Shown: positions 2,796 through 29,711 of the stretch, in pieces | Layout of the letters: every line of letters begins with the position of its first letter | Position numbering within the stretch: position 1 is the stretch's first letter | Assembly: GCA_026396275.1 (NCBI GenBank) | Contig: JAPLXC010000002.1 | Location: forward strand, 10,618 to 74,617 | Reading direction: 5' to 3' | DNA length: 64,000 nt | From: Candidatus Moraniibacteriota bacterium | Lineage (GTDB): Bacteria > Patescibacteriota > Minisyncoccia > Moranbacterales > JAPLXC01 | Made by a program: the position numbers and the translations under genes | Notes under the pieces: generated by a model | The model's input: only the letters and a program-made list of their open reading frames with translations | Told to the model about the DNA's origin: nothing | The model's database searches: none

Positions 2796-2868
2796 ACTTT
2801 TCTGTCGTCTATTTATATTAACTACGACTTAGACCAACAACGTAAAGGTCTATATATAACAAAATTAG

Positions 2869-3852: not shown

Positions 3853-3869
3853 CTGGCTGTTTATAAATT

Positions 3870-5318
3870 TTATTTATTCACATCAACTAAAAATTTTCCT
3901 AAATTTCTCTTTCCTATGATTACGGGATATTTTAAATGAGACCGTTCAATTATGGAAATTTTAGCAGGAATAACCTTCTCGCCTATCATAATATCTATTT
4001 TCACCATTGGACGATAAGTTGTTCCGTGTGATGAATGGATAATGGCCGTGTCAGCTAAATCCGGTATTTCTTTAAGAAGCTGCTCTTTATTTTGATTGTC
4101 AATTTCTCTTGCTTTTTCAGGAGTTAACAGATCAGGAAAGTTTTTCCTTTGAAACTTTTCCATTACTTCTTTAAATCCTAATTGTTCTGCAATATCCTTA
4201 TCAATGGAAGAAAATCCGGCTCCAGTATCAATTCGCGCTTCCACTTCAACTTCCTTTTCCTCTTTTCCAATTAATTTTACTTTTTCAACCGTGCCAATAA
4301 CTTTTCTTCCGGAAATATCCTCGATCTCGCCTTCAATTTCTCCTCCGAAAAGGTTCATTCCGACCCGGATTCCCCGCTCGGCGGTTTTAATTTTTATATC
4401 TGCGATTCTTTCCAATCTCCTTTTCAAGCCCGCGAGATTGGCGATTTGAATGGAAAGACCCGGTCGGGCGTTGAGTTCCAGAAAAACCGGACCGCGCTCG
4501 CGATCAATAGCAATATCGGCTCCTAAAAATCCTAATCCTGAAATCTCTTGAGTACGGACTGCCAACTTCAGAATATCATTCCAGTAGGGAATTTTGATTC
4601 CTGATAAAAGCAGGCGAGTGTCCGGAACATACTCAATGATTTTCCCTTTTCCTAAAACGGCAGTGGTAGTTACGCCGGAAGCTAAGTCAATCCCGACGCC
4701 AATTGCCCCTTGTTGGAGATTGGCCTTACCTTGCGATTCCTTAGTAGGAAGCCGGAGCATTGCCATTACCGGAACTTTGTTATAGACAATTACCCGGATA
4801 TCGGGAATTCCCCGATAAGCGTAGGGCTTGAATAGTTTGAGAAGCTGAAGACGCTCTTCAAAAAAAGCCGTGTCGGGAATATTGGAAAGAGAAAATGAAC
4901 CATCAATGATATTACGAATGTGATTTTTCAGGTCCTCAATGGTAACTAACGATCCATCTGCTTTAATCCAGGTATCTTCCAGTTCCCCGCCTGCATCCTG
5001 TCCGGGGTAGGAAGCATCGCGGGCAGGCTTTTTCTTTCCATAAACAACCAGAATTCCCTCGCCGCCAAATCCGCGGTTGGGCTTCAAAGCGAAACTCGTC
5101 GGTAGGATGCTCCAGTCAAATTTTTCCAGATCCTCAAGAGTTGTTATTCTGGCAATCAGTCGGGGAACAGGAATTTCATTCTTTTTTAAAATTCTCTTAC
5201 TTAGAATCTTGTTATCAGCTATCCGCTTGGCTTTTTTGAGGTTAAAAGGGCGGATGTACTGAAGATTGCGGGAATTCATTCCCAAGATCTGGCCGGTTTT
5301 TCGAAAAAACTTGAACAT
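3870..5318 (-). CDS. Fusion of an alpha-L-glutamate-ligase-like ATP-grasp (RimK-related) with a C-terminal retropepsin-like Zn_protease (PF05618/COG4067) domain
   Basis: 482 aa. N-terminal approx. 330 aa has ATP-grasp motifs (FALKPNRGFGGEGILVV; VFLELNARPGL). C-terminal approx. 140 aa (ARIDTGAGFSSID ... HGTTYRPMVKIDIMIGEKVIPAKISIIERSHLKYPVIIGKRNL) matches the DTGA-containing retropepsin-like domain usually encoded next to rimK. Domain assignment is from recall, not a search. Confidence 0.6.
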   Translation of the reverse strand: MFKFFRKTGQILGMNSRNLQYIRPFNLKKAKRIADNKILSKRILKKNEIPVPRLIARITTLEDLEKFDWSILPTSFALKPNRGFGGEGILVVYGKKKPARDASYPGQDAGGELEDTWIKADGSLVTIEDLKNHIRNIIDGSFSLSNIPDTAFFEERLQLLKLFKPYAYRGIPDIRVIVYNKVPVMAMLRLPTKESQGKANLQQGAIGVGIDLASGVTTTAVLGKGKIIEYVPDTRLLLSGIKIPYWNDILKLAVRTQEISGLGFLGADIAIDRERGPVFLELNARPGLSIQIANLAGLKRRLERIADIKIKTAERGIRVGMNLFGGEIEGEIEDISGRKVIGTVEKVKLIGKEEKEVEVEARIDTGAGFSSIDKDIAEQLGFKEVMEKFQRKNFPDLLTPEKAREIDNQNKEQLLKEIPDLADTAIIHSSHGTTYRPMVKIDIMIGEKVIPAKISIIERSHLKYPVIIGKRNLGKFLVDVNK

Positions 5319-5321
5319 AAT

Positions 5322-5972
5322 TTATAGTTTTTTAAACACTTCCCGAAAACGCAGGTATTCAATCAAGCGTAGTCCAGTCCATTTCCCCAAAAATATATTA
5401 ATTAAAATTACAAGCAAAACAATCCAAGGGAAAGAGATAATTAGGATTCTTAAAAGCTCCCACTTTGCCAGATAATACCCTCCCAGAGAAATAAGGAGTG
5501 TTTCCAGCGCCAGAATAAAAGCTGTTCTGTTTCCTTTTTCAATCTGGGCCGCTACGAATTTTTCTACAATGGTGATCATAATAAGTAAGGGAAAAATGGA
5601 AACGGCGGCGAGACCCGTCCGATGCTGCGATCCTCCAACGACTAAAATTCCCAAGATTGCCAAGGCAACGATGCTTAATGTTATTGCTACTCGAGGCAGA
5701 TAAAGTATTCTTAATTTTTTTAGCAGGTAACGAACCAGCATTCCGACTAAAATGACGCTCACGAAAATAGCAATTCCGTATTTCAGTCCGGTTGCTAAAA
5801 AAGCAAAAATCACGATCGAAGGAGTATAAATGCCGAAGGCCTTAATTCCCACTACCTGGCGGAGAAAGGCAATGAGGGTGGCGATGATCGGAAACATCAG
5901 CAGAAGAATCACGGTATCAAGCGGAACACCTTGGGAGATAAAATATTGAGTAATTGGGCTGATATTATTCAT
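5322..5972 (-). CDS. 7-TM membrane protein; likely the 7TM partner of RimK-like ATP-grasp systems (7TM_transglut-like)
   Basis: 216 aa. Seven hydrophobic helices read by eye. Starts 4 nt after the ligase-protease fusion gene and shares its strand. Confidence 0.5.
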   Translation of the reverse strand: MNNISPITQYFISQGVPLDTVILLLMFPIIATLIAFLRQVVGIKAFGIYTPSIVIFAFLATGLKYGIAIFVSVILVGMLVRYLLKKLRILYLPRVAITLSIVALAILGILVVGGSQHRTGLAAVSIFPLLIMITIVEKFVAAQIEKGNRTAFILALETLLISLGGYYLAKWELLRILIISFPWIVLLVILINIFLGKWTGLRLIEYLRFREVFKKL

Positions 5973-6098: not shown

Positions 6099-6587
6099 CT
6101 ATCTATCTAGATTCTTGAACTTTCTACTATGTATATGGCATATGGCAATCGCCAGCGCGTCAGCAACATCATCCGGTTTGGGAATTTGTTTCAGCTTCAA
6201 AATATTTTTCACCATTAATTGAACCTGCCTCTTTTCCGCCCGGCCGTAACCAGTAATCGCTTGTTTCACCTGGAGCGGCGTGTATTCAGCAATTCTAATT
6301 TCTTGCTTTTCCAAAGTCAAGAGAATGGCGCCTCTGGCTTGGCTGACTTTCACTGCGGTCTTCAGATTTTTAAAAAAGAAAATATCTTCAACGGCCGACT
6401 CCTGAGGATTATATTTTTTTATAATTTTTTCAATGTCTTTGCTTATTTCTTTAAGCCGTTCGGCCGTTTGTTTTTTCGAGGATGTGCTAATGTGCCCCCA
6501 GGCGTCAGGAGTCAATCTCCCTTTATTTTCAGAAATAACAGCCCACCCCACTGTTGCCGTACCCGGATCTATCCCCAGTATTTTCAT
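6099..6587 (-). CDS. ruvC: Holliday junction resolvase RuvC
   Basis: 162 aa. MKILGIDPGTATVGWAV at the N-terminus; typical RuvC size. Confidence 0.9.
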   Translation of the reverse strand: MKILGIDPGTATVGWAVISENKGRLTPDAWGHISTSSKKQTAERLKEISKDIEKIIKKYNPQESAVEDIFFFKNLKTAVKVSQARGAILLTLEKQEIRIAEYTPLQVKQAITGYGRAEKRQVQLMVKNILKLKQIPKPDDVADALAIAICHIHSRKFKNLDR

Positions 6588-6601
6588 ACAAAGTCGACTA
6601 T

Positions 6602-7354
6602 TTATAAATTATCAAAGATTTCTTGAACATCGTCTTGGTTATCAAGCGCTTCCAAAAGTTTTTCATAGTCCAGCTTTGTATCCTGATCTAAAGAAATTTT
6701 CTGAAGCGGGGCAAATACAAGACCGGCGTTTTCAATTGATACTTTATGCTTTTCTAAATGTTCTTTTACTTTCTGTAACTCTTCTGATTTCGTAAAAACC
6801 GTTAAAGTTCCGCCGGAATAAATTATGTCTTCTGCGCCTGCTTCAATGGCTTTCAATTCCAGCTCATATGGGTCTTCATCAGCTCCTACTGGAATATTAA
6901 TATTTCCCACTTGCTTAAAAAGATAACTTACTGAACCAGCGGGGACTAATTTGCCTCCGGCTTTAGTTAAAATATTTTTTAACTCTCCGAGTGTCCGATT
7001 TTTATTATCCGTCGCGGTTTTAATGAGCATTGCCACCTGCCCGGAACCACCCGCCTGCTGTACGGGCAGGTAGGCCTCATAAATTACTTCTTCCACTGTT
7101 TCGCCTTTAAGCTCGCCGGTTCCTCGCTTGATAGCCCGCTCAATATTTTCCTTCGGCATGTTAACACTTTTGGCTTGGTCAATGGCTAACTTTAATTTCC
7201 AGTTTGTTTCCGGATTGCTCCCGCCTTCCCGAGAAGCAATGGAAATTGCCCGTCCGAATTTGGTAAAAACATTCGCTCGCTTGGCATCCGTTATCGCCTT
7301 TTTATGTTTTATTCCCGCCCAATGGGAGTGACCTGACATATGATCATGAAGCAT
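6602..7354 (-). CDS. yebC: YebC/PmpR family transcriptional regulator
   Basis: 250 aa. MSGHSHWAGIKHKKAITDAKRANVFTKFGRAI is the conserved YebC N-terminus. Confidence 0.9.
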   Translation of the reverse strand: MLHDHMSGHSHWAGIKHKKAITDAKRANVFTKFGRAISIASREGGSNPETNWKLKLAIDQAKSVNMPKENIERAIKRGTGELKGETVEEVIYEAYLPVQQAGGSGQVAMLIKTATDNKNRTLGELKNILTKAGGKLVPAGSVSYLFKQVGNINIPVGADEDPYELELKAIEAGAEDIIYSGGTLTVFTKSEELQKVKEHLEKHKVSIENAGLVFAPLQKISLDQDTKLDYEKLLEALDNQDDVQEIFDNL

Positions 7355-7420
7355 AAAACATATAACATGCGGCAGGCCTGATTTCTTAATTTGTTACATG
7401 TCTCATGTTGTATGTTATAT
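7342..7420. repeat. Inverted repeat of the CAYRTAACA/ATGTAACAT family between yebC and the LTD-protein gene
   Basis: atgaagcataaaacatataacatg ... catgtctcatgttgtatgttatatg: the two arms are near reverse complements. Same motif family as 11785-11815, 18038-18118, 24368-24435 and 60975-61020. Confidence 0.45.
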
Positions 7421-7544
7421 GATACAATGATAGCATTTTAAAGGCCTAATTTCAAGAAAAAGTCGCCTCTCCTTTTTGTTTTTAATACTGTTAACTTTTG
7501 CTGCATATACAACGAAAGTTAACAGACTAATGACAAAGGAATGA

Positions 7545-9500
7545 TCACCAACTGGAAATTAATAGAATTGCTTTATTAATAAAGAAGTTTATCTCTGTTC
7601 CTAAGTTTTTGAAAAATTTTACTGCGTAGTGTTCTTCTTCCAAAATCGGAGAAGTGAAGGTGTAAATATTTTCCTCGCTTCTGACCGTTTTGGCACCCAA
7701 AACTCTGCCTTGGTTACCCTGAACATAGCTGGCCAGTTTAATATTCGTCCCATAATTGAATAGCTCGTTTTGTTTTTCCTCGCCGGATAAATCCTCCGAC
7801 TGCCCGTCCATAAATTCTTCAAAATCTTCTTCTTCAATGACTTCATTTTCCTGTGTTTCTGTTTCTACGTTTTCTTGTTCTTCTGTTTTTATGTTTTTTG
7901 GTGATTTGATCCACTGCCATCCGCTTTCCATCTTTTTGTAAACCTCGTTTTCCTCCGCTTTTTTCCCGTCCTTGTCATATTTAACTTGATAAGCTTTTTT
8001 GCCATCCGGATAGCGCAATTCTACTTTTCCTTTTTCATTATTAAGAGCAAAGCTCACGTATTTTCTGGTGATTATTCTTTCTTCTCCCGGACTAATACTA
8101 AAATCGTCCTTGATCCAATGATTGTAAAGTTTTTTGGACCCGGTGGCGATGCTCCAGCTTTTGAGATTGATTTCGTCATCCGAATAGTTTTTAACTGATA
8201 CCCATTCATTCTTGCTATCATTGCCGACGGGATTTGGGCAGATTGATTTTATCTTTACTTTATCGCGGGGAAATTTTTTGACTTTAATCTTAAAAGTTTC
8301 AATTTTTTCTTCACTACCATCAAATATCTTGAGAGTCACTTTGTATTTCCCGGCCTTTTCGTATTTGTGCTTCGTTTCCTTTTTGTAACTCTTGTGGCCA
8401 TCCCCAAAATCCCAGGTGTATTTTAACTTATCTTTATCCTTGTCCTTGGCTTTGGCGGAAAATTCGGCATAGACCCCGACATAAATTTTTTTGTCATTCT
8501 TGGACTTGGAATCAGGCAATTGATTAAATTTATTTTCTTCCCCGGGAGTCAAAAACCGGCTCCAGCGCCAAGACGCGCCGTCGAAATTGTAAGAAACACC
8601 TTCTTTGGCACTTCCCTTATATTCAACTGAGGAAACTGGGATTTTGTCCTGTGGATTATAAAGTTTTAAGATCTCTCCACTAGTATCATTAAGAGCAAGC
8701 TCACAATTTGTATTGCCTTTTCCGATTAGTAAAAAACCATTGCCTGAAATTTCTTTTCCGGAAAGATCGCATTTCTTGCCGGCTCGGTCTTCAATCCGCC
8801 AATTAGTTAATTTTTCAAGCTTATCACTGGAATTATACAGTTCAACAAATTCGTCTTGCGTCAGAGGATCATTCGGATGAGGATATATCTCATTTATACT
8901 GATTTTTTCCGTGTATACTTTTGGTTTTGAAGCTTTCTTTCCCGGTGTTCCTCCAGGATCATAGCTTTCCTGCCAGTTATAACTATTTTCCATTCTTTCA
9001 ATACTGTAATTTTTTATTGGATTTGAGAGATTATATGAACATTTTTGGGAATTTCCCCAACAAATTAAATCAATAACATCAACGTTTTTAGTCGCCGAGG
9101 TACTGATATATACCGCTCCGTTTGAAACAAGTGAAGCGGAATAAACCGTACCGATCGTCGTTTCTTGTTTATATTTTTCATAATAATCAACGGAGGAGAT
9201 CAGATAATAGTTCCCCGCTTCAATAATAGAATTTTTGAAAGAAAGCGTTTTATTAGTATCGGTTCCAGCGGAATTAACAATATGCAGTTTTAAGGGTAGG
9301 GTCTGCAGATTAATATCGTCATCGGTTGGATTGAACAGTTCAATAAATTCCTCGTTGGCTGAATTGGTGCCGATTAAAACTTCAGAGATAATTAATTGAT
9401 TAAAATTTTTCGCCAGAATAGGTTGGGAAAAACCAAAAAATCCCGCTGTAAGCAGGATTGAAAACAAAAATAAATTTACTTTTGTATTTTTGTTTTTCAC
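7545..9500 (-). CDS. Secreted surface protein with two lamin-tail (LTD) domains and a PKD domain
   Basis: 651 aa. N-terminal signal peptide. LIISEVLIGTNSANEEFIELFNPT and INEIYPHPNDPLTQDEFVELYNSS are LTD signatures. YTWDFGDGHKSYKKETKHKYEKAGKYKVTLKIFDG is a PKD signature. Lys/Asp-rich linkers. Confidence 0.6.
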   Translation of the reverse strand: MKNKNTKVNLFLFSILLTAGFFGFSQPILAKNFNQLIISEVLIGTNSANEEFIELFNPTDDDINLQTLPLKLHIVNSAGTDTNKTLSFKNSIIEAGNYYLISSVDYYEKYKQETTIGTVYSASLVSNGAVYISTSATKNVDVIDLICWGNSQKCSYNLSNPIKNYSIERMENSYNWQESYDPGGTPGKKASKPKVYTEKISINEIYPHPNDPLTQDEFVELYNSSDKLEKLTNWRIEDRAGKKCDLSGKEISGNGFLLIGKGNTNCELALNDTSGEILKLYNPQDKIPVSSVEYKGSAKEGVSYNFDGASWRWSRFLTPGEENKFNQLPDSKSKNDKKIYVGVYAEFSAKAKDKDKDKLKYTWDFGDGHKSYKKETKHKYEKAGKYKVTLKIFDGSEEKIETFKIKVKKFPRDKVKIKSICPNPVGNDSKNEWVSVKNYSDDEINLKSWSIATGSKKLYNHWIKDDFSISPGEERIITRKYVSFALNNEKGKVELRYPDGKKAYQVKYDKDGKKAEENEVYKKMESGWQWIKSPKNIKTEEQENVETETQENEVIEEEDFEEFMDGQSEDLSGEEKQNELFNYGTNIKLASYVQGNQGRVLGAKTVRSEENIYTFTSPILEEEHYAVKFFKNLGTEINFFINKAILLISSW

Positions 9501-9518
9501 CCGAATTTATATTTTTTT

Positions 9519-10094
9519 CTATTGTTTTATTTTTTCCATTATTTCTCCCAGTTCATTCACCCTCTTTGCTTCCTGCTGTTTCTGCAAGTCCATAACGATG
9601 CTTTTTATGCCGTAAGGATCGGGAATCTGGCGGAAAATAAATCGCTCCTCTTCTCCAGCTGTCTGAATATGAACGTCTCCATAGTTAAGAATAGTTGGAA
9701 AAAATCCTTCCACCTCGGCTGTTACATCCTGAATTTTGGCGAATTTTAGTTCGCTTACCTGACGCATAAAAAGCCCTTTTTGCTCAATATTCACTACCCG
9801 CTCAGAGGTAATGATCCAGACGTCAAAATAGTAATCAATCCAGACAAAAAACGCATAGATCCAGATAAAGAGGACAAAAATGGTCTCTAAAAAAAGCATT
9901 AGAGCATAAAAGTTATTCTGCTGAAAAACAGAAAACAGCGCCGGCAAGACAAAAAATCCTGACGCCAGAGCCGCGACCAGAAAAATAACAATAAAAAACT
10001 GCTGAAGAATGTCAAACCAGTGGCGATGGATAACTTTAATTATCCTCTCCTGCTCGCCTATCTCTTTAAAATGAAACGCGTGCAATCTTTTCAT
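9519..10094 (-). CDS. Membrane protein with a bacterial PH (bPH_2, YdbT-like) domain
   Basis: 191 aa. Two TM helices followed by WIITSERVVNIEQKGLFMRQVSELKFAKIQDV, which is bPH-like. Confidence 0.4.
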   Translation of the reverse strand: MKRLHAFHFKEIGEQERIIKVIHRHWFDILQQFFIVIFLVAALASGFFVLPALFSVFQQNNFYALMLFLETIFVLFIWIYAFFVWIDYYFDVWIITSERVVNIEQKGLFMRQVSELKFAKIQDVTAEVEGFFPTILNYGDVHIQTAGEEERFIFRQIPDPYGIKSIVMDLQKQQEAKRVNELGEIMEKIKQ

Positions 10095-10103
10095 TGTCGT
10101 GCT

Positions 10104-10325
10104 TTAGAGATTTAAGTTGGAAAATATTTCATCCCACCGCAGGGATAAAAACAGCATCAGGTTGGAAAAAAGAAGCGCGCCGAACACGGAAAGGAAAATA
10201 GTCAATGTTAAAACCATCACGCTTTTGCTAAAAGAATACTTGATAACGTGATAAACAATAAAAAGCGCGGCGATAGTGAAAAATAAAAAAAGGATGAGAT
10301 AGAAAATTCCAAAAATAGCGATCAT
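10104..10325 (-). CDS. Small two-TM membrane protein, hypothetical
   Basis: 73 aa, entirely hydrophobic, packed 9 nt downstream of the bPH gene. Confidence 0.3.
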   Translation of the reverse strand: MIAIFGIFYLILFLFFTIAALFIVYHVIKYSFSKSVMVLTLTIFLSVFGALLFSNLMLFLSLRWDEIFSNLNL

Positions 10326-10385
10326 ACTAGTTTGTCTACTAATTATCCCGCTAAAGCGGGACCCCGCTGAGGCGGTGGCGAATCA

Positions 10386-10468
10386 AGTACTAATATACGA
10401 ATTTCAATTATGCCTAAGAAGGGTTTTGATAATTAGTATATTCGTATATGATTCGTAGTTCGTAGAGA
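10386..10468. repeat. TACGAAT/ATTCGTA heptamer cluster (inverted arms around a spacer) directly 3' of ruvB
   Basis: agtactaatatacgaattt ... ttagtatattcgtatatgattcgtagttcgtagag. One of seven similar clusters at gene boundaries. Confidence 0.55.
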
Positions 10469-11479
10469 TTACATCAGTTTTTGCTGATGATTACTGGGCA
10501 ACTTATGCCCCAAATGCCGAAAAGCGTTTTCGGTGACAACGCGCCCGCGGGGAGTCCTGGCTAAAAAGCCAATCTGAATGAGATACGGCTCAAATACATC
10601 TTCAATTGTTTGAATTTCCTCGGATGTCGCCGCCGCGATGGTCTGCACTCCCACCGGGCCTCCGTTGAATTTTAGAATTATTGTTTCCAGAATATGCCGG
10701 TCAATCAGTTCCAAGCCCACATCATCAATGTCCAACATTTTTAACGCCTGGCAGGTAACTTCGGCTGTTATCACATCGTGGTTGCTAATTTGAGCAAAGT
10801 CGCGCACGCGCTTTAGAATCCTGTTAGCCACCCGGGGGGTCTGCCGGCTGCGGACCGCCATTTCCCTGGCTGCGTCATTTTCCACATTCACGTCCAATAT
10901 CTTGCTGGAGCGATTAATTATTTTTTGAATTTCCTCCTCACCATAAAAGTCTAGACGGTGGATGATGCCGAACCGGTTGCGCAATGGATTGGAAATAGCG
11001 CCTAATCGGGTAGTGGCGCCAATCAAAGTAAAATGGGGAAGTTCCAGCTGAAGTGTGCGCGCTGATGGGCCCTTGCCGATGATTATATCAAGCTTGTGAT
11101 CCTCCATTGCTGGGTAAAGCACTTCTTCAATTAATTTATTAAGCCGGTGTATTTCATCAATAAAAAAAATATCTCCATCCTGAAGATTGGTAAGAATTGA
11201 TCCCAGATCTCCTACCCGCTCAATCGCCGGACCGGAAGTGATCTTGATGCTCGCTCCCATTTCCTTGGCAATAATGTAGGCCAGGGTTGTTTTCCCTAGT
11301 CCTGCCGGGCCGTAAAGGAGAACGTGTTCGATTGGCTCGCCGCGTTTTTTGGCTGCTTCAATGACAATTCGCAAATTTTTCTTTACTTTTTCCTGCCCGA
11401 CGTATTCAAAAAAGCTATTGGGCCGAAGCGTAGTGTCCAGTTTAACATCCTCAATTTTCTCACTGGAATTGGTGATCAT
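10469..11479 (-). CDS. ruvB: Holliday junction branch-migration helicase RuvB
   Basis: 336 aa. Walker [20 protein letters not shown]; full AAA+ and winged-helix layout. Confidence 0.92.
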
Positions 11480-11851
11480 AAGCTGATGTAGATTTGTTCC
11501 TTAATTACCCGTTATTTGACCCCATATTAGAGAGTATACTACGATTTGACAAACTTTGAAAGTCGTGCTAAACTGGTCTGTCATCTGTAAATATGCGCTT
11601 TTGGGTGCAATTTCCGATGACTAGCAGTAAGCTGTAGACAATTGGTGGTGACTATCTTTTGCCATCAATTCAGGGAACTTTCTTGTCCAGATATGGGTGC
11701 AGGGGTTTCGGCTCTTGTTCTCCTCGACATTGTTCTCTCCCTGGGGATCACATTTCCAGGATTGTCTACAGATTAGTGATATATTCATGAAGCATGAAAC
11801 ATGCAACATGAAACAAATTAAAAAAGTTTTTTAACAAAGGAGGGAAGAAAG

Positions 11852-12019
11852 ATGGAAACGAGGTATTTAATTCAAATAATGATAACTTTCTTGGTTGGAG
11901 CGACTGTTGTTGGCTTTTCGGCTATCACAGGGATTTGGCATCCAAATAACCCTTGGGTTTTTGCTAGCGCGATGGCAATTGGGGGATTTGTTGGTTTTAT
12001 TGTTATTCCTATTTTCTGA
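11852..12019 (+). CDS. Small (55 aa) two-TM membrane protein, hypothetical
   Basis: ATG preceded by aaggagggaagaaag (RBS). Translates to METRYLIQIMITFLVGATVVGFSAITGIWHPNNPWVFASAMAIGGFVGFIVIPIF. Absent from the track because it is under 60 aa. Confidence 0.35.
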   Translation: METRYLIQIMITFLVGATVVGFSAITGIWHPNNPWVFASAMAIGGFVGFIVIPIF

Positions 12020-12049
12020 ACAAAAGTTTTGAGGAAGGAGGAGAAGACA

Positions 12050-12394
12050 ATGAAAATTGTTATTCTTGTGGGACTTTCAATATTAGCAGTAGGAGCTATT
12101 GGAGCAGCGATCAAATTCAGGAAAGACAAACTCGGGCTAGTGTTATTAATTCTTATGATTATAGGAGCTGCTGCAACATCCTTTGGTTTTTTAGCACTAG
12201 GTAAGCAAGACGGTTATTTGACATTACAAAATGAGTTGACAAAAGAAGTTGACCTCAACAAAGTTCCCATTAAAGGATACCATTCGTCTAATGCTAAAAT
12301 AACGATTGTTTACAAGGATGGTGAGATTGAAAAGGTTTTCCTGGTTAAAGGAACGACGGTCGAGGCGACAAAGAAATATCAACCCGGAGAATAA
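12050..12394 (+). CDS. Membrane-anchored hypothetical protein
   Basis: Start re-set to MKIVILVGLSIL behind the RBS gaggaaggaggag. Two TM helices, then a soluble beta-rich tail. Confidence 0.45.
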   Translation: MKIVILVGLSILAVGAIGAAIKFRKDKLGLVLLILMIIGAAATSFGFLALGKQDGYLTLQNELTKEVDLNKVPIKGYHSSNAKITIVYKDGEIEKVFLVKGTTVEATKKYQPGE

Positions 12395-12473
12395 TTGTGC
12401 TATTGCTCAAAAAAACTATAAAGGGACACGGAGAAATCCATGCCCTTTATTTTTTTATTAAACCCAAATGAAT

Positions 12474-12532
12474 TGTCATGCTGAACTCGATTCAGCATCT
12501 AATTAGATTCCGGCTCGAAGGCCGGAATGACA
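12474..12532. repeat. GTCAT-type modular double-hairpin palindromic element, full copy
   Basis: tgtcat-GCTGAActcgaTTCAGC-atctaattagat-TCCGGCtcgaagGCCGGA-atgaca. Ends 6 nt from the GIY-YIG stop codon. Confidence 0.7.
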
Positions 12533-12537
12533 AATAC

Positions 12538-12828
12538 TTATCCAAGCAATGTTTCACTTAAATCTTTCCATTTGGGATTACTTTTATTGATTAAATCAAT
12601 TTTCCATTCACGTTTCCAATTTTTAAGCTGTTTTTCTCTGGTTAAGGCGCTTCTGACATCTTCAGTCTGCTCAAAATATACTAATTTTTTCAAATTGTAT
12701 CTTTTAGTAAAACCATCAACCAGTTTATTTTTATGCTCATAAATTCTTTTAGATAAATTACCAGTAACTCCGGTATAAATTACTGTATTAATTTTATTGG
12801 TCAAAATGTAAACACAATATTGTTTCAT
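12538..12828 (-). CDS. Small stand-alone GIY-YIG nuclease (YhbQ/YazA-like URI domain)
   Basis: ATG start re-set; the track begins at an upstream TTG. MKQYCVYILTNKINTVIYTGVTGNLSKRIYEHKN is a GIY-YIG signature. About 96 aa. Confidence 0.7.
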   Translation of the reverse strand: MKQYCVYILTNKINTVIYTGVTGNLSKRIYEHKNKLVDGFTKRYNLKKLVYFEQTEDVRSALTREKQLKNWKREWKIDLINKSNPKWKDLSETLLG

Positions 12829-12831
12829 AAA

Positions 12832-12863
12832 AATTAGATCCCGGGTCAAGCCCGGGATGACAT
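12832..12863. repeat. GTCAT-type element, single-hairpin half copy, immediately 5' of the GIY-YIG start
   Basis: aattagat-CCCGGGtcaagCCCGGG-atgacat. Same scaffold as the 48139 copy. Confidence 0.55.
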
Positions 12864-12902: not shown

Positions 12903-15900
12903 TTATTCTTCCGTTACTCTCTCCACTTCCTCCAATGTCGTCTCGCCTTCCAAAACCTTAAGGATCCCGTCCTGCTGCATAGTGAGCATTCCGTTTTCAA
13001 TGGCTTTGTCGCGGATGTGGGTGGAAAGTTCGTTAGCATAAATCATTTCCTGGACGGCTTTGTCAATTACTAAGACCTCACTCACAGTGGTACGGCCTTT
13101 GTAGCCGATGCCGTTGCATTTGGCGCACCCTTTGGGCTTGTAAATGTAACTTCCGGGGGGAATTTTTACTCCCGCTTTGGGTGAAATTGACTTAATAATA
13201 TTTTTTATCTTTTCTTTTTCTTCCGCGGTGGGCTTAATTTTTTCCCGGCACTCACAAAGTTTTCGCACCAGCCGCTGCGCCATAAATCCATTGGCGGCGG
13301 TGGCTAAATCATCGGTTCTCACTCCCATATTGAGAAGGCGGGGAATAGCGCCGGGCGCGTCATTGGTATGCAAAGTTGATAAAACCAAATGTCCAGTGAG
13401 CGCCGATTGAACAGCGATGCCGGCTGTTTCCTCATCGCGGATTTCACCAATCATCATAATGTCGGGGTTTTGGCGAAGAAGCGAGCGCAGGGCCGTGGGA
13501 AAAGTGTATCCTTCTTTGTCACTAACCTGTGTTTGTAAAATCCCCGTCAGCTGGTATTCAATCGGATCCTCCACGGTGATTACTTTAACTTCGGGTTTAT
13601 TGAGCACCCGCAGCAAACTGTAAAGCGTCGTTGTTTTTCCGGATCCGGTGGGACCGGTATTGAGAAAAAATCCATTGGGCTTTTTGATTTCATGAAGGAT
13701 TTTATCCAGATTTTGTTTTCTGATCCCCAGTTTATCAACATCCAGCGCCACCGCTCCCCGATTGAGAAGGCGCATCACGACTGTTTCTCCGTAGCCGCCT
13801 AAAATTATGGAAACGCGCACGTCCACTTTTATTTCAGTTATATTTTTAAACGGCCGGTCTATGGCTATGGAAAAACGGCTGTCTTTTACTCCTTGGCGAA
13901 GTTCAGCTTTAAGCCCGGAAAGTATTTTTATCTCTCCTAAAAATGTCGGGTATTCATTGAGGGGAATCCGCCCGATGGTTTGCAAAATCCCGTCAATGCG
14001 AAGGCGCACCAAGACCTCTTTCTCTTCCGGCTCGATATGAATATCGCCGGCGGAAAGCAAAAGCGCCGCCGCGATAACGTAGCGCAGAGCGTCTTTTTGA
14101 TTAGCGCCTTTCAAAAACTCGGCGAATTTTTCGAAGGAGGATGTATTTTTAGAAACCTTTTCCAAATCTTCTTGAGGTATTTCGATCGCCCGGGAAAGCG
14201 ACTGCTCCATTAATTTTTCATAAATCTCTTCAAGGAATTCGGTTTGCCCCGTCACCCGCCATACCTCTTCCAGTGAAGTGATTCCCTCAATGGCTTTCAT
14301 GATCCCATCTTGCGCCATAGTTATCATGCCTTCTTCCAAAGCGGCTTGAGTTATTTCTCCTTCGCTGGCCATGTTTAAAATAAGTTTTTCGATTGATTCG
14401 CTCATGGTGAGAACCTCGAAAACTCCGATTCTCCCCCGATATCCCAGATTATGGCAACGGGGGCAACCTTTTGGCCGATATAATTGAAGGATATCTTTGG
14501 GGATTTCCATTTTTGACTTCGGGGAGATTATCGCCAGAATCTTTTTGATTGAGTTGGCTGTTTCCTTGGCGGGCTGATAGACCTCCCGGCAGTGAGGACA
14601 AATTTTTCGCACCAGGCGCTGGGCGATAAGAGCGCTCACCGCTGGAGCAATAAGGTTGGGTTTGACTCCCAATTCTATCAGGCGCGGAACAGCGCCAGCC
14701 GCGCTGTTGGTGTGAATCGTGGAAAGCACCAGATGCCCAGTTAGTGCGGCGTTAAGGGCAATGTCGGCCGTTTCTTCGTCGCGGATCTCGCCAACCAGAA
14801 TCACGTCCGGATCCTGTCGCACTATCGCCCGCAATCCCTTTTCGAAAGTGTACCCCCGGCTCTTGGACACCTGCGTCTGGGAGATTCCTTTTATTTCATA
14901 TTCCACCGGGTCTTCAATAGTTATTATTTTCACTCCCGGTACATTGATCCGGTTAAGAACGGCGTAAAGCGTTGTGGTTTTCCCGGATCCGGTGGGGCCG
15001 GTGTTGAGAATCATCCCATGGGGCTTTTCTGTCTGTTTTTGCACTTGCTCATAAGCTAGTCCCCGCAATCCCAGTTCCTCAACTCTCAAGAGGACATCGG
15101 CTTGATTGAGAAGACGCATCACGATGCTCTCTCCGCGGTTTCCGGGAATGATGCTGACGCGGATATTGATTAGCCCGTTTTCCAGATTGACATTGAAGTG
15201 CCCGTCCTGGGCAATATCACGGATGTTGAGTTTCATTCCTCCCATCATTTTCACCCGCGATATGATGAAGCGGTAAATATCCAGAGGCAGATATCCGACA
15301 TCCTGCAGAACTCCGTCCAGGCGATAGCGCAGACGCACTTCTTCTTCCTGCGGCTCAAAATGAATGTCGCTGGCTTTCATCTTCACCGCCCCGGCCATAA
15401 TGGTAGTGATAATCTGGGTGGTGGGAATTTCCCGGATCCTTTTTTTGAGTTCCAGCAGATCCTTGAATTCCCTTTCAAATTCTTCAAGGTCTTTTCCGCT
15501 AAGAGACAGGCGGAGAGCGTCCAGATTTTCCAAAAGCGGTGTCTCTTTATACTTATTCAGGGCTTTGCTAAGCGAAGAAAGCGAAACGACATAAAGGCGG
15601 ATGTTCCAACCATTTTCTTGCTGAAGTTTTTTGACGTAATCCAGTGTTTCACGGCTTCCGGGATTGGTCAGCGCCAGCCGGATGTTTTTCCCAGCTTTCT
15701 GAAAGACGGCCACTTGAAAACGGCGCGCCTCCTCTTCGGGAAGAGAGCGAAGCTCATCGCCGCTCAAAGGAAAGAGATTGAGATCAACGTAAAAAAGATT
15801 GTGTTTTTTGGCCAGCGCCGCGGCTTGTTCTTCTTCCGATTCCTTACGCATTCGCCGCAGGACTTGAGACGCCCTGATATCTTTTTCTTTATCAGCCGGC

Positions 15901-15950
15901 AGTGTTTTGCGGAAAACTTTAACCATAGAGTTACGACTATTGTACCGCAT
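12903..15950 (-). CDS. pilB: Tandem-fused double GspE/PilB-type secretion/pilus assembly ATPase
   Basis: 1015 aa = two complete GspE modules. Each has an N1 domain, Walker A (LNTGPTGSGKTTTLYAVL / FLNTGPTGSGKTTTLYSLL), Walker B (DPDVILVGEIRD / NPDIMMIGEIRD), a His box (LTGHLVLSTIHTN / LTGHLVLSTLHTN) and a C4 zinc knuckle (CPHC..CPRC / CECRE..CAKC). Confidence 0.85.
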   Translation of the reverse strand: MRYNSRNSMVKVFRKTLPADKEKDIRASQVLRRMRKESEEEQAAALAKKHNLFYVDLNLFPLSGDELRSLPEEEARRFQVAVFQKAGKNIRLALTNPGSRETLDYVKKLQQENGWNIRLYVVSLSSLSKALNKYKETPLLENLDALRLSLSGKDLEEFEREFKDLLELKKRIREIPTTQIITTIMAGAVKMKASDIHFEPQEEEVRLRYRLDGVLQDVGYLPLDIYRFIISRVKMMGGMKLNIRDIAQDGHFNVNLENGLINIRVSIIPGNRGESIVMRLLNQADVLLRVEELGLRGLAYEQVQKQTEKPHGMILNTGPTGSGKTTTLYAVLNRINVPGVKIITIEDPVEYEIKGISQTQVSKSRGYTFEKGLRAIVRQDPDVILVGEIRDEETADIALNAALTGHLVLSTIHTNSAAGAVPRLIELGVKPNLIAPAVSALIAQRLVRKICPHCREVYQPAKETANSIKKILAIISPKSKMEIPKDILQLYRPKGCPRCHNLGYRGRIGVFEVLTMSESIEKLILNMASEGEITQAALEEGMITMAQDGIMKAIEGITSLEEVWRVTGQTEFLEEIYEKLMEQSLSRAIEIPQEDLEKVSKNTSSFEKFAEFLKGANQKDALRYVIAAALLLSAGDIHIEPEEKEVLVRLRIDGILQTIGRIPLNEYPTFLGEIKILSGLKAELRQGVKDSRFSIAIDRPFKNITEIKVDVRVSIILGGYGETVVMRLLNRGAVALDVDKLGIRKQNLDKILHEIKKPNGFFLNTGPTGSGKTTTLYSLLRVLNKPEVKVITVEDPIEYQLTGILQTQVSDKEGYTFPTALRSLLRQNPDIMMIGEIRDEETAGIAVQSALTGHLVLSTLHTNDAPGAIPRLLNMGVRTDDLATAANGFMAQRLVRKLCECREKIKPTAEEKEKIKNIIKSISPKAGVKIPPGSYIYKPKGCAKCNGIGYKGRTTVSEVLVIDKAVQEMIYANELSTHIRDKAIENGMLTMQQDGILKVLEGETTLEEVERVTEE

Positions 15951-15963
15951 TTTACACTGGCGA

Positions 15964-15996
15964 GCAAAAATAAAAAGTCAGAATATATTCTGGCTT
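15964..15996 (-). terminator. Putative intrinsic terminator after the DHH gene
   Basis: agccagaatatattctgact hairpin (1 mismatch) followed on the minus strand by tttttatttttg. Confidence 0.4.
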
Positions 15997-16032
15997 TCTT
16001 TAATTTCTTTTTCCGAAGGCAGTTAAAAAAAT

Positions 16033-17190
16033 TTAAAACGGAGTCGGGGAGCTTTGCTCTGTTATTTTTGAAAGTTTATTCACGATTTCCTGCTCGGCTT
16101 CGATCATGTCTTTTCCGCGCAGGCGAAAAGTAACAGAGTCCTGAAAGACACTCCCGCCAAAAAGAGAAGAAATTTTACCCAGGTCCTCCGCTTTGGCGCA
16201 TTTGGCTATTCCGGCTAAAGTGTCAGTTGTTTCATTGTAAAATACTAGAAATATTCTTCCCGTTGAATAATTATCTTTAATTTTCTCTAAAATTAAAGGA
16301 AGGTCCTTAGGATTGCTTCGGCTCTGAACAAAGTCCTCTAGATACACCGGAGCCCAGACCAGCCCCAGATTTTCATCCCACTTAAGCCGGGCCATTACCC
16401 GTCCCCAGAGCTTCAAAATATGAAGCGGCTGGGTCTTATACAAGTATCTTACGATTCTCTTCTGATCGGCTCCTTTTTCCATCAGTTTAGCCGCAATGGT
16501 TAAGGCCTTGGGAGTGGTATTTCTTTTTTGAAAACTATTAGTGGCACTGATGATTCCGGCCAAAAGGCAATTGACTATCGTCTCATCCAGGGAGAAAGGA
16601 TCCAGTGACTCAATCAGTCCTGCGAGAATTTCGGCAGTTGATGAAGCGGTCATATCTACAAAATTAATCTGCCCGAAATTATCATTAGTGCTATGATGAT
16701 CAATGTTTACAATTGGAACTTCGTAAAATATGTCTGAGTTTTCTTCGTATAATTTTCCGACTGATTCCTTGTCAGGGCAGTCAAGCACCACCACGAGATC
16801 ATATTTGAACTTTGCCGGAATAAAAGAAAAATCCTGGGGATCAATCGCGCCGCGTTCGGGAGTAATATAGATTTTGAATTCTTCCCCTTCAGTGGCAGTC
16901 CGCACATTTGTTATTTTGTTCAAACGGGTGTTAAAAGACAGCATGAAATCCCGCGCGCCGGAAATACGATGGGTAATTTCTTTGGGCTGGGGAAGAAAAT
17001 GGAATTTTTGAACGCTTCCCGTATCATCGGAAAAAGCGAGAGTTGCTTCAATTCCTTTTCTTTTGAGAAAAAAATAAAAAGCCCAGCCGGAGCCGATAGC
17101 GTCTCCAGTCGGGTTTTGAGGAAGAAATATCAAGACCTGTTTGGCCTGACCTAAAAGATTTTTCAATTGCTGAATTGGCTCTAGGGCCAT
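16033..17190 (-). CDS. DHH-family phosphoesterase (NrnA-like oligoribonuclease/pAp phosphatase)
   Basis: 385 aa. DHH motif VNIDHHSTNDNFG and a downstream DHHA1-like region. Confidence 0.7.
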   Translation of the reverse strand: MALEPIQQLKNLLGQAKQVLIFLPQNPTGDAIGSGWAFYFFLKRKGIEATLAFSDDTGSVQKFHFLPQPKEITHRISGARDFMLSFNTRLNKITNVRTATEGEEFKIYITPERGAIDPQDFSFIPAKFKYDLVVVLDCPDKESVGKLYEENSDIFYEVPIVNIDHHSTNDNFGQINFVDMTASSTAEILAGLIESLDPFSLDETIVNCLLAGIISATNSFQKRNTTPKALTIAAKLMEKGADQKRIVRYLYKTQPLHILKLWGRVMARLKWDENLGLVWAPVYLEDFVQSRSNPKDLPLILEKIKDNYSTGRIFLVFYNETTDTLAGIAKCAKAEDLGKISSLFGGSVFQDSVTFRLRGKDMIEAEQEIVNKLSKITEQSSPTPF

Positions 17191-27285: not shown

Positions 27286-27580
27286 ATGTTTATAAAATTA
27301 TTATATTATATAAATTAGATTATATTTATTACTATAAAAAGAATAAAATTAGATGTTTATTATTTTTTGCTTTAGTAAAAACAATTTTTTAATATTTAAA
27401 TTGTGGATAAATAGGTTATTAATAGAATTATTTTTTGTGGGAAAAAGTTTATAAATTAGGAGAAAATAATTTCTTAATTTAAATAAACAATTTACGACAT
27501 TCCTTCTTCACAGGTTAATTGAATAGATATTCAAGGGAAATACAAAGGAATATCCGTATTAGTACACATAATATCCACAG
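27286..27580. promoter_or_regulatory. Candidate oriC: dnaA-dnaN intergenic region with DnaA boxes and an AT-rich unwinding stretch
   Basis: Perfect DnaA box TTATCCACA (as tgtggataa, 27402-27410). One-mismatch box atatccaca at 27571-27579. Extremely AT-rich 27290-27400. Confidence 0.5.
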
Positions 27581-28957: not shown

Positions 28958-28980
28958 ATGTTTTAGAAAACACGATTGTA

Positions 28981-29063
28981 TTATGCACAAGAAAGTATAT
29001 CACGGTCAAGTTGTTCACACCAGTCAAATTAGTTCATAAACTTGTTTATAATATGTGAATAAG
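28981..29063. promoter_or_regulatory. DnaA-box cluster in the dnaA promoter/leader
   Basis: ttatgcaca (28981-28989, fits TTATNCACA), ttgttcaca (29011-29019) and tgtgaataa (29055-29063, reverse complement of TTATTCACA). Confidence 0.45.
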
Positions 29064-29173
29064 ATATCAGATTCCGGGTTCTCGTAATCACTTAATGATG
29101 TATTGACTTTTCCGGGTCTGCTGATAAACTTTCCTATAGCTGTCGTTTATAATTTTTCAAGGGTAAAATCTCG

Positions 29174-29705: not shown

Positions 29706-29711
29706 AAAACA

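What the first reader, a model, noticed from the sequence alone, without database searches (positions are those of the whole stretch)
12903..15950. Covalently duplicated PilB/GspE secretion ATPase
The 1015-aa product is two complete GspE/PilB modules in one chain. Both halves keep Walker A, Walker B, the His box and the tetracysteine zinc motif, so both look catalytically competent. PilB-family ATPases normally assemble as homohexamers of roughly 500-600-aa chains. A fused dimer would give a trimer-of-dimers and allow the two halves to diverge in function. No pilin or platform genes are adjacent in this window.
Basis: seen in the sequence. Interest (0 to 1): 0.55.

Follow-up and report, generated by a model that had tools for sequence, protein, structure and literature searches.

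The report
Tandem two-module PilB pilus ATPase
This is a real, strongly conserved gene in a group of tiny uncultured bacteria (Moranbacteria) that joins two working copies of the motor that normally builds type IV pili into one protein chain. Three chains rather than six would therefore be expected to make the usual six-part ring.

Summary
ORF 12903..15950 (-) encodes N1(MshEN)-N2-CTD-linker-N2-CTD, two PilB/GspE (T2SSE) ATPase modules 44% identical to each other.

Three corrections apply. The likely start is the ATG at 15926, giving 1007 aa. Module 2 lacks the N1 domain. Its first cysteine pair is CxC, not CxxC.

It is not an artefact. At least 120 protein clusters and at least 80 species-representative genomes, nearly all Moranbacteria/Parcubacteria (CPR), carry the same uninterrupted fusion. 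All catalytic motifs are invariant in both modules, and both are under strong purifying selection.

Among 1.84 billion representative proteins, only about 14 clusters have this architecture, all named ones from Parcubacteria. One relative has three modules.

The gene is always an orphan. No pilC, pilM or pilN lies within about 10 kb in 87 loci. It sits instead in a conserved nrnA-like DHH / ruvB / yebC / ruvC neighbourhood. A close relative carries both the fusion and a canonical T4P operon with its own single PilB on one contig.

Best reading: an extra PilB-type motor that forms a trimer of dimers. The ring architecture and the partner machinery are inferred, not shown. I found no description in the literature, so I rate it a new variant of a known kind.

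The parts
12903..15950 (-). Whole ORF of the tandem PilB-type ATPase: 1015 aa from the first ATG. The probable CDS is 12903..15926, 1007 aa.
15540..15800 (-). N1 domain (MshEN/GSPII-type), residues 51-137. It is present only once per chain.
   Evidence: Pfam PF05157, E 8e-08. AF2 pLDDT is 71-89. No RLG-type c-di-GMP motif is visible in the sequence (the motif is recalled from my own knowledge).
15417..15539 (-). N1-N2 linker of module 1, residues 138-178.
   Evidence: AF2 pLDDT is below 50. It is homologous to the segment that precedes module 2.
15075..15416 (-). Module 1 N2 domain, residues 179-292, with the RxRxDG and GES(I/V)VMRLL arginines.
14244..15074 (-). Module 1 C-terminal ATPase domain, residues 293-569. 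Walker A 14976-14999, Asp box 14898-14918, Walker B 14778-14795, His box 14706-14741, Cys pairs CPHC 14589-14600 and CPRC 14454-14465.
14193..14243 (-). Inter-module tether, residues 570-586. Predicted with low confidence.
   Evidence: AF2 pLDDT is below 50 for 562-578 in 1007-aa numbering.
14058..14192 (-). Short helical element before module 2, residues 587-631. It is the duplicated copy of the N1-N2 linker.
   Evidence: BLASTP self-alignment. AF2 pLDDT is 80-88.
13731..14057 (-). Module 2 N2 domain, residues 632-740. It has a 7-residue insertion relative to module 1 and about 7 relative to Thermus PilF.
12906..13730 (-). Module 2 C-terminal ATPase domain, residues 741-1015. Walker A 13632-13655, Asp box 13554-13574, Walker B 13434-13451, His box 13362-13397, Cys pairs CEC 13248-13256 and CAKC 13116-13127.
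12838..12858 (-). Terminator-like GC-rich hairpin plus T-run, 45 nt after the stop codon.
   Evidence: a consensus match only
15939..15997 (-). Upstream control region: a hairpin plus T-run after the DHH gene (15974-15997) and a TACAAT -10-like hexamer (15939-15944) just before the ATG at 15926.
   Evidence: read directly from the sequence; function is inferred
16033..17190 (-). Conserved upstream neighbour: a DHH-family, NrnA-like phosphoesterase.
   Evidence: Pfam DHH. NrnA-like by NCBIfam and PDB matches. Found immediately upstream in 74 of 82 loci.
10469..11479 (-). Conserved downstream neighbour ruvB, followed further on by bPH, LTD/PKD, yebC and ruvC.
12538..12849 (-). GIY-YIG endonuclease-like ORF inserted between the ATPase gene and ruvB. 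It is not part of the conserved unit.
   Evidence: Pfam GIY-YIG. Present in only 2 of 82 related loci.

Best explanation
The gene encodes a genuine tandem-duplicated PilB/GspE-type (extension-type) type IV filament ATPase: N1-[N2-CTD]-tether-[N2-CTD]. It is vertically inherited.

Shown:
- Both modules keep every catalytic and nucleotide-sensing motif.
- Both are under strong purifying selection.
- The fusion is fixed across Moranbacteria and occurs in other Parcubacteria.
- The gene is separated from pilus genes.
- A canonical T4P operon with its own single PilB coexists on the same contig in a close relative.

Inferred:
- Three chains assemble into one pseudo-hexameric ring, a trimer of dimers with alternating module-1 and module-2 positions and only three N1 anchor domains.
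- This ring docks on a PilC-type platform as a second, specialised motor.
- The rare three-module relative would give a dimer of trimers.
- ATP turnover would follow the known PilB scheme, in which the N2 of one unit packs on the CTD of the next and interfaces open and close around the ring. Here neighbouring units are chemically different and covalently tethered.
For: Architecture and motifs.

Not an artefact, and lineage-wide.

Purifying selection in both modules: pN 0.084 and 0.087 with dS saturated.

The pore-loop-1 Glu (the PilB_Gm E400 equivalent, PMC5424180) is conserved in both modules: E393 in 120/120 and E841 in 119/120. This fits both modules lining a functional pore.

Module numbers of 2 and 3 both divide 6.

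The unit duplicated to make the triple is CTD1-linker-N2_2: the middle module has an N2 like module 3 (67%) and a CTD like module 1 (64%). That is the pair of domains expected to form a PilB 'packing unit' (PMC5424180).

The roughly 60-residue connection (a 17-residue low-confidence tether plus a 45-residue helical element) is long enough to reach a neighbour (inference).

A canonical T4P operon (RR, PilB, PilC, pilin-like proteins, PilM, PilN) lies about 100 kb from the fused gene on contig JBFOMZ010000137.1.

The best PDB matches for either module are PilB, PilF and GspE.
Against: No oligomeric state was measured or modelled. AF2 pTM is only 0.46, so the relative placement of the modules is not predicted with confidence.

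No platform, PilM or pilin gene lies next to the fused gene in any of 87 loci (and Pfam contexts), so the partner machinery is unknown.

Very few module-specific fixed differences exist, 5 of 93 conserved columns, so there is little sign of functional specialisation of the halves.

The conserved neighbours are DNA-repair and housekeeping genes, not pilus genes.
Confidence: 0.6

Rival explanations
1. Stacked-ring architecture. Six chains assemble so that the module-1 domains form one hexameric ring and the module-2 domains form a second ring stacked on it, as in two-tier AAA+ unfoldases. This would replace three chains forming a single ring.
For: Two (or three) tandem P-loop modules per chain is the hallmark of stacked-ring ATPases (my own knowledge). 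N1 occurs only on module 1, which could mark a membrane-proximal ring. AF2 gives no confident inter-module packing, pTM 0.46.
Against: No stacked rings are known in the PilT/VirB11-like family (my own knowledge; PMC5424180 describes single rings of N2/CTD packing units). Module 2 keeps the pore-loop Glu, the N2 arginines and the Zn cysteines as strictly as module 1. That would be unexpected for a distal ring that never touches the platform. The segment duplicated in the triple variant is CTD1+N2_2, which is the in-plane packing-unit pair.
Confidence: 0.15
2. The fused ATPase is not a pilus-extension motor. It serves a DNA-transaction role such as DNA uptake or processing, functionally linked to the Holliday-junction genes it always accompanies.
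For: Adjacency to ruvB, ruvC or yebC persists from 100% down to 39% identity and through local rearrangements:
- DHH-PilB2-RuvB in 69-74 of 82 loci
- PilB2 then RuvC after 5 nt
- PilB2-RuvB
- PilB2-YebC-RuvC
- YebC about 3 kb downstream in L080

It is never next to pilus genes. T4P-type ATPases such as ComGA and PilF power DNA uptake in other bacteria (PMC6325625; my own knowledge). CPR bacteria are thought to rely on pili and competence systems (PMC6744442).
Against: In this window the gene has its own promoter-like and terminator-like signals, and a mobile GIY-YIG ORF plus a 1-kb gap separate it from ruvB. The region is the slowly rearranging oriC-proximal backbone (dnaA, dnaN, polA, tsaE), so synteny may be purely historical. 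The protein has no DNA-binding domain. The DHH neighbour is NrnA-like, not RecJ.
Confidence: 0.15
3. One module is a regulatory pseudo-ATPase that binds nucleotide without turning it over, as in many asymmetric duplicated ATPases.
For: Module 2 evolves somewhat faster than module 1: mean column conservation 0.77 against 0.81, and consistently lower identity to relatives. It has the altered CxC cysteine spacing. Some distant doubles have a degenerate feature in one module:
- P0128 module 2 has lost the Cys motif.
- P0134 module 2 has a degenerate RxRxDG.
- The unrelated P0138 has Walker A K->T in module 1.
Against: In this protein and 119 close homologues, every catalytic residue is invariant in both modules. 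pN is equal in the two modules.
Confidence: 0.07
4. Sequencing or assembly artefact, or a pseudogene formed by read-through of two adjacent pilB genes.
For: None found.
Against: The same continuous ORF appears in hundreds of independent assemblies and in 80 of 80 listed species representatives. The modules are only 44-48% identical, so they cannot be a collapsed or duplicated assembly repeat. Purifying selection is strong. The single-module sequences that fall inside the fused clades all sit on contigs of 3.5 kb or less, or are flagged partial.
Confidence: 0.01

Closest known systems
Canonical PilB type IVa pilus extension ATPase (Geobacter metallireducens PilB 5TSG/5TSH/6OLJ; Myxococcus PilB 3JC8; PMC5424180)
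   Same: Module 1 aligns end to end with the N1 + N2 + CTD layout (E about 1e-111). It shares Walker A, the Asp box, the atypical Walker B, the His box, the N2 arginines, the tetracysteine site and the acidic pore loop.
   Different: A second N2+CTD module is covalently appended. There is only one N1 per two ATPase modules. The gene is not in a pilus locus. The expected assembly is three chains per ring instead of six.
Thermus thermophilus PilF (5IT5, 5OIU, 6F8L) and Vibrio GspE/EpsE (1P9R, 4KSR, 4PHT)
   Same: These are the best structural relatives of module 2 alone (E about 1e-90). They belong to the same Zn-binding extension/secretion ATPase subgroup (PMC5061722). PilF also grew by internal duplication and serves both pili and DNA uptake (PMC6325625).
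   Different: PilF multiplies the N-terminal GSPII domains, not the ATPase core. GspE hexamers had to be enforced artificially by fusion to Hcp1 (4KSR/4KSS). Here nature tethers ATPase modules to each other.
PilC/GspF platform protein: an internally duplicated chain reported to form a trimer (PulF, PMC10790770; ancient internal duplication, PMC6668835)
   Same: The same evolutionary logic applies: two homologous halves in one chain, with three chains giving a pseudo-sixfold assembly. A trimer-of-dimers ATPase would match it in symmetry.
   Different: It is a different protein family (T2SSF, a membrane protein). The symmetry match is my hypothesis and was not tested.
Contiguous but unfused paralogous motor genes such as pilT-pilU (PMC6668835)
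   Same: Tandem duplication of T2SSE-family ATPase genes.
   Different: Those remain separate polypeptides forming separate homohexamers. Here the copies are fused in frame, and no split version was found.
Engineered single-chain or covalently linked ring ATPases, for example linked ClpX subunits (my own knowledge)
   Same: Covalent tethering of neighbouring subunits of a hexameric motor, which allows subunit-specific mutation.
   Different: Those are laboratory constructs of AAA+ proteins. This is a natural PilT-like-family fusion, conserved across a lineage.

Membership tests
PilB/GspE-type T2SSE ATPase (PF00437; TIGR02538 PilB, TIGR02533 GspE) | T2SSE domain match above the curated threshold | tested here: met
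   PF00437 scores 750.7 bits in two stretches. TIGR02533 scores 919 bits (cut-off 630) and TIGR02538 scores 873.8 bits (cut-off 676), each in two stretches. These whole-protein scores sum the two modules.
PilB/GspE-type T2SSE ATPase | Walker A, Asp box, atypical Walker B (GEIRD) and His box all intact | tested here: met
   Present in both modules and invariant in 120 homologues. Kept in nearly all divergent doubles.
PilB/GspE-type T2SSE ATPase | N2-domain arginines that sense the nucleotide (RxRxDG, VMRLL) | tested here: met
   R208, R210 and R279 in module 1 and R649, R651 and R727 in module 2 are each found in 120/120 sequences. Their role is taken from PMC5424180.
PilB/GspE-type T2SSE ATPase | Tetracysteine Zn site in the CTD, which separates PilB/GspE from PilT (PMC5061722) | tested here: met
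   Module 1 has CxxC...CxxC. Module 2 has four invariant Cys but with CxC...CxxC spacing. Zinc binding by module 2 was not tested.
PilB/GspE-type T2SSE ATPase | N-terminal N1 (GSPII/MshEN) domain on each ATPase unit | tested here: not met
   There is one N1 at residues 51-137 only. Module 2 starts with a copy of the linker, not of N1.
PilB/GspE-type T2SSE ATPase | Encoded with, or acting on, a PilC/GspF platform, PilM/GspL and pilins | tested here: inconclusive
   None lies within about 10 kb in 87 loci or in the 64-kb window. A canonical operon lies about 100 kb away on the same contig in a relative that is 82% identical.
PilB/GspE-type T2SSE ATPase | Hexameric ring and ATPase activity | not testable with these tools
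   Only a monomer AF2 model was obtained (pLDDT 78, pTM 0.46).
PilT/PilU retraction ATPase (TIGR01420) | About 350 aa, no N1, no Zn cysteines, and best match to the PilT family model | tested here: not met
   TIGR01420 scores 339 bits summed over two modules, against 874-919 bits for PilB/GspE. PDB PilT matches reach E 1e-31 to 1e-34, against 1e-111 for PilB. N1 and the cysteines are present.
c-di-GMP-binding MshEN-type N domain | Tandem RLGxx(L/V/I)(L/V/I)xxG... motifs at the extreme N-terminus (recalled from my own knowledge) | tested here: not met
   No RLG motif is present in residues 1-140 (read). The Pfam hit covers only the GSPII-like part, residues 51-137.
Two-tier (stacked-ring) tandem ATPases of the AAA+ type | AAA+ fold modules D1 and D2 forming stacked hexamers | tested here: not met
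   The modules are of the PilT-like/T2SSE fold. AAA-family Pfam hits are only short P-loop matches below or near threshold. Stacking itself could not be tested.

The most novel reading that the evidence does not exclude
The fusion records the true working symmetry of type IV filament motors. Alternating, non-equivalent ATPase positions (3 x 2) would be matched to a trimeric platform whose chains each carry two homologous cytoplasmic domains. In these CPR bacteria the tandem (and occasionally triple) motor would be a dedicated second engine working alongside the canonical PilB, for example for retraction or for DNA uptake coupled to the neighbouring recombination genes. If so, it is a natural single-chain tool for dissecting subunit order, the direction of ATP turnover and platform coupling in PilB-type motors.
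Probability: 0.2. Interest if true: 0.8.

Novelty: new variant of a known kind. Interest (0 to 1): 0.55.

Why it matters
How hexameric PilB/GspE motors coordinate six identical sites, and how they couple to the PilC/GspF platform, is still argued. The debate includes C2, C3 and C6 states and whether the platform is a dimer or a trimer (PMC5424180, PMC6858323, PMC10790770).

A natural chain that hard-wires two catalytically intact modules as neighbours fixes the subunit register. A sister form wires three. This halves the number of N1 anchors, allows module-specific mutation without mixed oligomers, and predicts a 3-chain ring.

It also shows that a large group of host-dependent CPR bacteria, thought to rely on pili for contact and DNA acquisition (PMC6744442), keep an extra orphan pilus-type motor under strong selection. 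That motor sits beside recombination genes.

Public annotations call it only 'GspE/PulE family protein'. Seven full-text searches found no description of the fusion.

Tried and rejected
1. Assembly artefact or read-through: rejected.
2. Degenerate half: rejected for this family.
3. PilT-like retraction identity: rejected on family scores, N1 and cysteines.
4. c-di-GMP-sensing N-terminus: no motif seen.
5. DHH neighbour as RecJ, which would have strengthened a DNA-uptake link: it is NrnA-like instead.
6. Operon with DHH or ruvB in this window: terminator-like hairpins on both sides and a promoter-like -10 argue for separate transcription. These are consensus matches only.
7. Independent origins for P0129 and P0132. 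Their two modules are sisters (bootstrap 93 and 100), but the genes sit in the same synteny. Gene conversion between modules is therefore more parsimonious. This is not resolved.
8. Split (unfused) versions in relatives: only fragments on short contigs were found.
9. AF2 full-length model: the domains are confident, but pTM of 0.46 gives no usable inter-module geometry.
10. Exact look-up of the window's own protein, P0001, found no contig on record.
11. Rfam and tRNA scans of the window found nothing near the gene.
12. A complete 1.11-Mb Moranbacteria genome (CP064974.1) carries a single PilB next to SLT/TPR/FtsW genes rather than in a pilus operon. These genomes therefore hold several PilB paralogues. 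I could not read the rest of that genome to count PilC or PilT.
Full report

Yes. The minus-strand ORF 12903..15950 is open for 1015 codons. Pfam reports two complete T2SSE domains (PF00437, 750.7 bits, two stretches) and a single N-terminal MshEN/GSPII domain at residues 51-137. The NCBIfam equivalog models for GspE (919 bits) and PilB (874 bits) both exceed their cut-offs with two stretches.

A BLASTP of residues 1-569 against 570-1015 aligns 139-567 with 580-1013 (11-444 of the second half) at 44% identity, E 4e-135. The duplicated unit is therefore linker + N2 + CTD. N1 is not duplicated.

Motif positions are:
- Walker A: 318-325 and 766-773
- Asp box: 345-351 and 793-799
- Walker B: 386-391 and 834-839
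- His box: 404-415 and 852-863
- Cys pairs: CPHC/CPRC and CEC/CAKC

Two small corrections apply. First, a TACAAT hexamer sits inside the first eight codons, and the database protein P0001 and its homologues begin MVKV. The start is therefore probably the ATG at 15926, giving 1007 aa. Second, the first cysteine pair of module 2 is CxC rather than CxxC.

**2. Artefact or degenerate copy?**

Neither. A search of 5.8 billion clustered proteins returned more than 120 clusters of 1005-1034 aa with 66-100% identity and full coverage. They come from NCBI, JGI, ENA and Logan assemblies, including the 2012 ACD and GW2011 groundwater genomes, and are named Candidatus Moranbacteria, Parcubacteria or Patescibacteria.

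A scan of one genome per GTDB species found 134 species encoding a relative. The best 80 all cover about residues 9-1014 at 54-72% identity, and nearly all are labelled Moranbacteria, Moraniibacteriota or Parcubacteria.

In an alignment of 120 family members, these residues are invariant or nearly so in both modules:
- the Walker A Lys
- the Asp-box Glu/Asp
- the Walker B Glu
- both His-box histidines
- the N2 arginines (RxRxDG and VMRLL)
- all eight cysteines

Against the 82%-identical orthologue in L088, synonymous sites are saturated (pS 0.71-0.89). Non-synonymous divergence is only 0.084 in module 1 and 0.087 in module 2. Both halves are thus under equally strong purifying selection.

**3. 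How common is the architecture?**

An exhaustive HMMER pass over 1.84 billion 50%-identity representatives found 15,877 T2SSE relatives at E<1e-30. Only about 14 were full-length two-module clusters (P0121-P0134, 978-1018 aa, 39-54% identity), plus fragments. Wherever a source gives a name, it is a Parcubacteria group bacterium or Candidatus Paceibacterota.

In these distant doubles the catalytic residues are again kept in both modules, with a few lineage-specific exceptions:
- P0128 module 2 has lost the Cys motif.
- P0134 module 2 has a degenerate RxRxDG.

Single-module sequences that fall inside the fused clades all sit on contigs of 3.5 kb or less, or are flagged partial. I therefore found no convincing split version.

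**4. Evolution of the fusion**

I built a neighbour-joining tree of 128 N2+CTD cores. Module 1 and module 2 of the main family fall in two separate groups. Each module is as distant from the other (48% identity) as from the best single-module PilBs (50-55%). The duplication is therefore old. Module 2 evolves a little faster than module 1.

In P0129 and P0132 the two modules are sisters (bootstrap 93 and 100; 57% and 74% identity). Both genes lie in the same synteny as the rest. I therefore favour gene conversion between modules over independent fusions, but this is unresolved.

One Moranbacteria relative, P0005, has three modules (1460 aa; locus L090, with DHH directly upstream). Its middle module has an N2 like module 3 (67%) and a CTD like module 1 (64%). 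It arose by duplication of the CTD1-linker-N2_2 segment and has since diverged, so it is not an assembly repeat.

**5. Genomic context**

The window is the origin-proximal part of a Moranbacteria chromosome. It holds dnaA, dnaN, rnpA, yidC, polA, gyrA and ftsH, and no pilC, pilM, pilN, pilD or pilin genes.

The order is polA, tsaE (opposite strand), DHH, the fused ATPase, ruvB, bPH, LTD/PKD, yebC, ruvC. This order is conserved. DHH is immediately upstream in 74 of 82 loci and ruvB is downstream in 69 of 82.

The association with Holliday-junction genes survives at much greater distance and through rearrangements:
- P0125 (43% identity): the fused gene is followed after 5 nt by ruvC.
- P0129: followed by ruvB.
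- P0133 (39% identity): followed by yebC-ruvC.
- P0122: DHH, then the fused gene, with ruvB about 1.4 kb further on.

tblastn with Moranbacteria PilC, PilM, PilN and pilin-like proteins found no hit in 1.6 Mb of flanks around 87 fused loci.

The DHH neighbour is NrnA-like, not RecJ. In this window, hairpin/T-run motifs follow both the DHH gene and the fused gene. A GIY-YIG ORF found in only two other loci, plus a 1-kb gap, separate the fused gene from ruvB. Co-transcription is therefore doubtful.

**6. The fused gene is an extra paralogue**

Contig JBFOMZ010000137.1 (150 kb) carries the fused gene P0007, 82% identical to ours, at 120-129 kb with the DHH/ruvB context. At 0-22 kb it carries a canonical pilus operon: response regulator, single PilB (582 aa), PilC, three proteins with prepilin-like N-termini, PilM and PilN.

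That single PilB is only 42-43% identical to either module. In L080 a single PilB lies directly after the fused gene. In a complete 1.11-Mb genome, a related single PilB is itself outside a pilus operon. Moranbacteria thus keep several PilB paralogues, and the tandem one is the constant orphan.

**7. Structure**

Each module alone matches solved PilB, PilF and GspE chains. Module 1 with N1 reaches E about 1e-111 to Geobacter PilB. Module 2 reaches E about 1e-90 to Thermus PilF. PilT is far weaker.

An AF2 model built on 78 homologues folds all domains (mean pLDDT 78). Two regions have low confidence: the N1-N2 linker, and a 17-residue tether after module 1. The tether is followed by a confident three-helix element that is the duplicated linker. 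The pTM of 0.46 means the mutual placement of the modules is not predicted.

The pore-loop-1 glutamate, equivalent to Geobacter E400, is conserved in both modules: E393 in 120/120 and E841 in 119/120 (residue roles from PMC5424180).

**8. Mechanism proposed**

Established knowledge is that PilB-type ATPases work as hexamers. The N2 of one chain packs on the CTD of the next as a rigid 'packing unit', and ATP binding and release open and close the interfaces between units around the ring (PMC5424180).

My inference is that three tandem chains close one ring with alternating module-1 and module-2 positions and three N1 anchors. Five points support this:
- Both modules are fully competent.
- Both keep pore residues.
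- The tether is long enough to reach a neighbour.
- Chains with two and three modules both divide six.
- The segment re-duplicated in the triple form is exactly a CTD(n)+N2(n+1) pair.

The platform protein is itself an internally duplicated chain, reported to act as a trimer (PMC10790770, PMC6668835). A 3 x 2 motor would match it. This point is a hypothesis.

I cannot determine what the motor drives. The candidates are a second pilus function alongside the canonical PilB, or DNA uptake or processing as hinted by the ruv neighbourhood.

Rivals are a six-chain stacked double ring, a DNA-linked function, and a regulatory half. They are listed with their tests in the Rival explanations section.

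**9. Comparison and novelty**

Each module passes the sequence tests for PilB/GspE membership. The chain as a whole departs from the family in four ways:
- a covalent second ATPase module
- one N1 per two modules
- CxC spacing in module 2
- constant separation from pilus genes

It is not PilT-like.

Databases label it simply 'GspE/PulE family protein' or 'PilB'. Seven full-text searches, and reading of the CPR protein-family paper and the type IV filament evolution paper, found no mention of a tandem ATPase fusion.

I rate it a new variant of a known kind. It is of moderate to good interest to pilus-motor and CPR specialists. The sequence facts are secure, and the ring architecture and cellular role are open.

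Noticed in passing
L090:6001-10383 (protein P0005): A three-module version of the same ATPase (1460 aa) in a Moranbacteria contig with DHH directly upstream. Its middle module is a chimera: an N2 like module 3 and a CTD like module 1. It has diverged to 64-67% identity, so this is an old in-frame duplication of the junction segment. It is known from a single contig only.
   Followed up: partly
L089:8001-11144 (protein P0138): An unrelated 1047-aa protein in a non-CPR-looking context (ECF sigma/anti-sigma, sulfatase, MoxR/BatA). It joins soluble T2SSF (platform cytoplasmic) domain(s) to two T2SSE modules. The first module has Walker A GSGTT (Lys to Thr). This is an independent tandem ATPase fused to a piece of its platform.
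   Followed up: partly
L091:3226-6213 (P0132) and L085:8001-10985 (P0129): In these two lineages the two modules are each other's closest relatives (74% and 57% identity; bootstrap 100 and 93), yet the genes sit in the usual synteny. This suggests gene conversion between the halves, or re-duplication.
   Followed up: partly
window 6099-11479 and related loci L001-L086: The fused ATPase is accompanied by ruvB, yebC and ruvC from 100% down to 39% protein identity. No ruvA was seen next to ruvB in the window.
   Followed up: partly
window 12538-12849 (-) and 11480-12537: A GIY-YIG endonuclease-like ORF (103 aa) lies between the ATPase gene and ruvB. It is present in only 2 of 82 related loci, so it is probably a mobile insertion. 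The adjacent roughly 1-kb stretch has no convincing gene, tRNA or Rfam match.
   Followed up: partly
L080:13031-14815: In a 55%-identical lineage, a single-module PilB (594 aa, MshEN+T2SSE) lies directly downstream of the fused gene, followed by ftsW and yebC. Its orthologue in the complete genome CP064974.1 (L092) also lies outside a pilus operon, near SLT, TPR and ftsW genes.
   Followed up: partly
L087:8493-19488: A canonical Moranbacteria type IV pilus operon: histidine kinase, response regulator, PilB, PilC, three proteins with prepilin-like N-termini (for example KKNGFTIIEALV), PilM, PilN and two small membrane proteins. No PilT lies within 10 kb.
   Followed up: no
window 38309-41984 (-): A 300-aa ORF with a weak T4SS_pilin (PF18895) match overlaps the end of a 944-aa ORF that has no Pfam match, followed by a 213-aa ORF with no match. 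This may be a remnant or a divergent conjugation-like or surface module.
   Followed up: no
window 1839-5972 (-): A cluster of three ATP-grasp proteins (RimK-like; one fused to a Zn-protease-like domain) and a 7TM_transglut membrane protein. The same cluster travels with yebC/ruvC in distant relatives (L001, L083).
   Followed up: no
window 26137-30440: The chromosomal origin region: dnaN, dnaA, then rnpA and yidC on the other strand. The fused ATPase therefore lies about 12-15 kb from the likely oriC.
   Followed up: no
L005, L007, L012, L059, L082 (record titles): Several MAGs carrying the Moranbacteria-type gene and synteny are labelled 'uncultured Bdellovibrionales', 'Bathyarchaeia archaeon' or 'Saccharibacteria' in their records. 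These are probably taxonomic mislabels or bin contamination.
   Followed up: no
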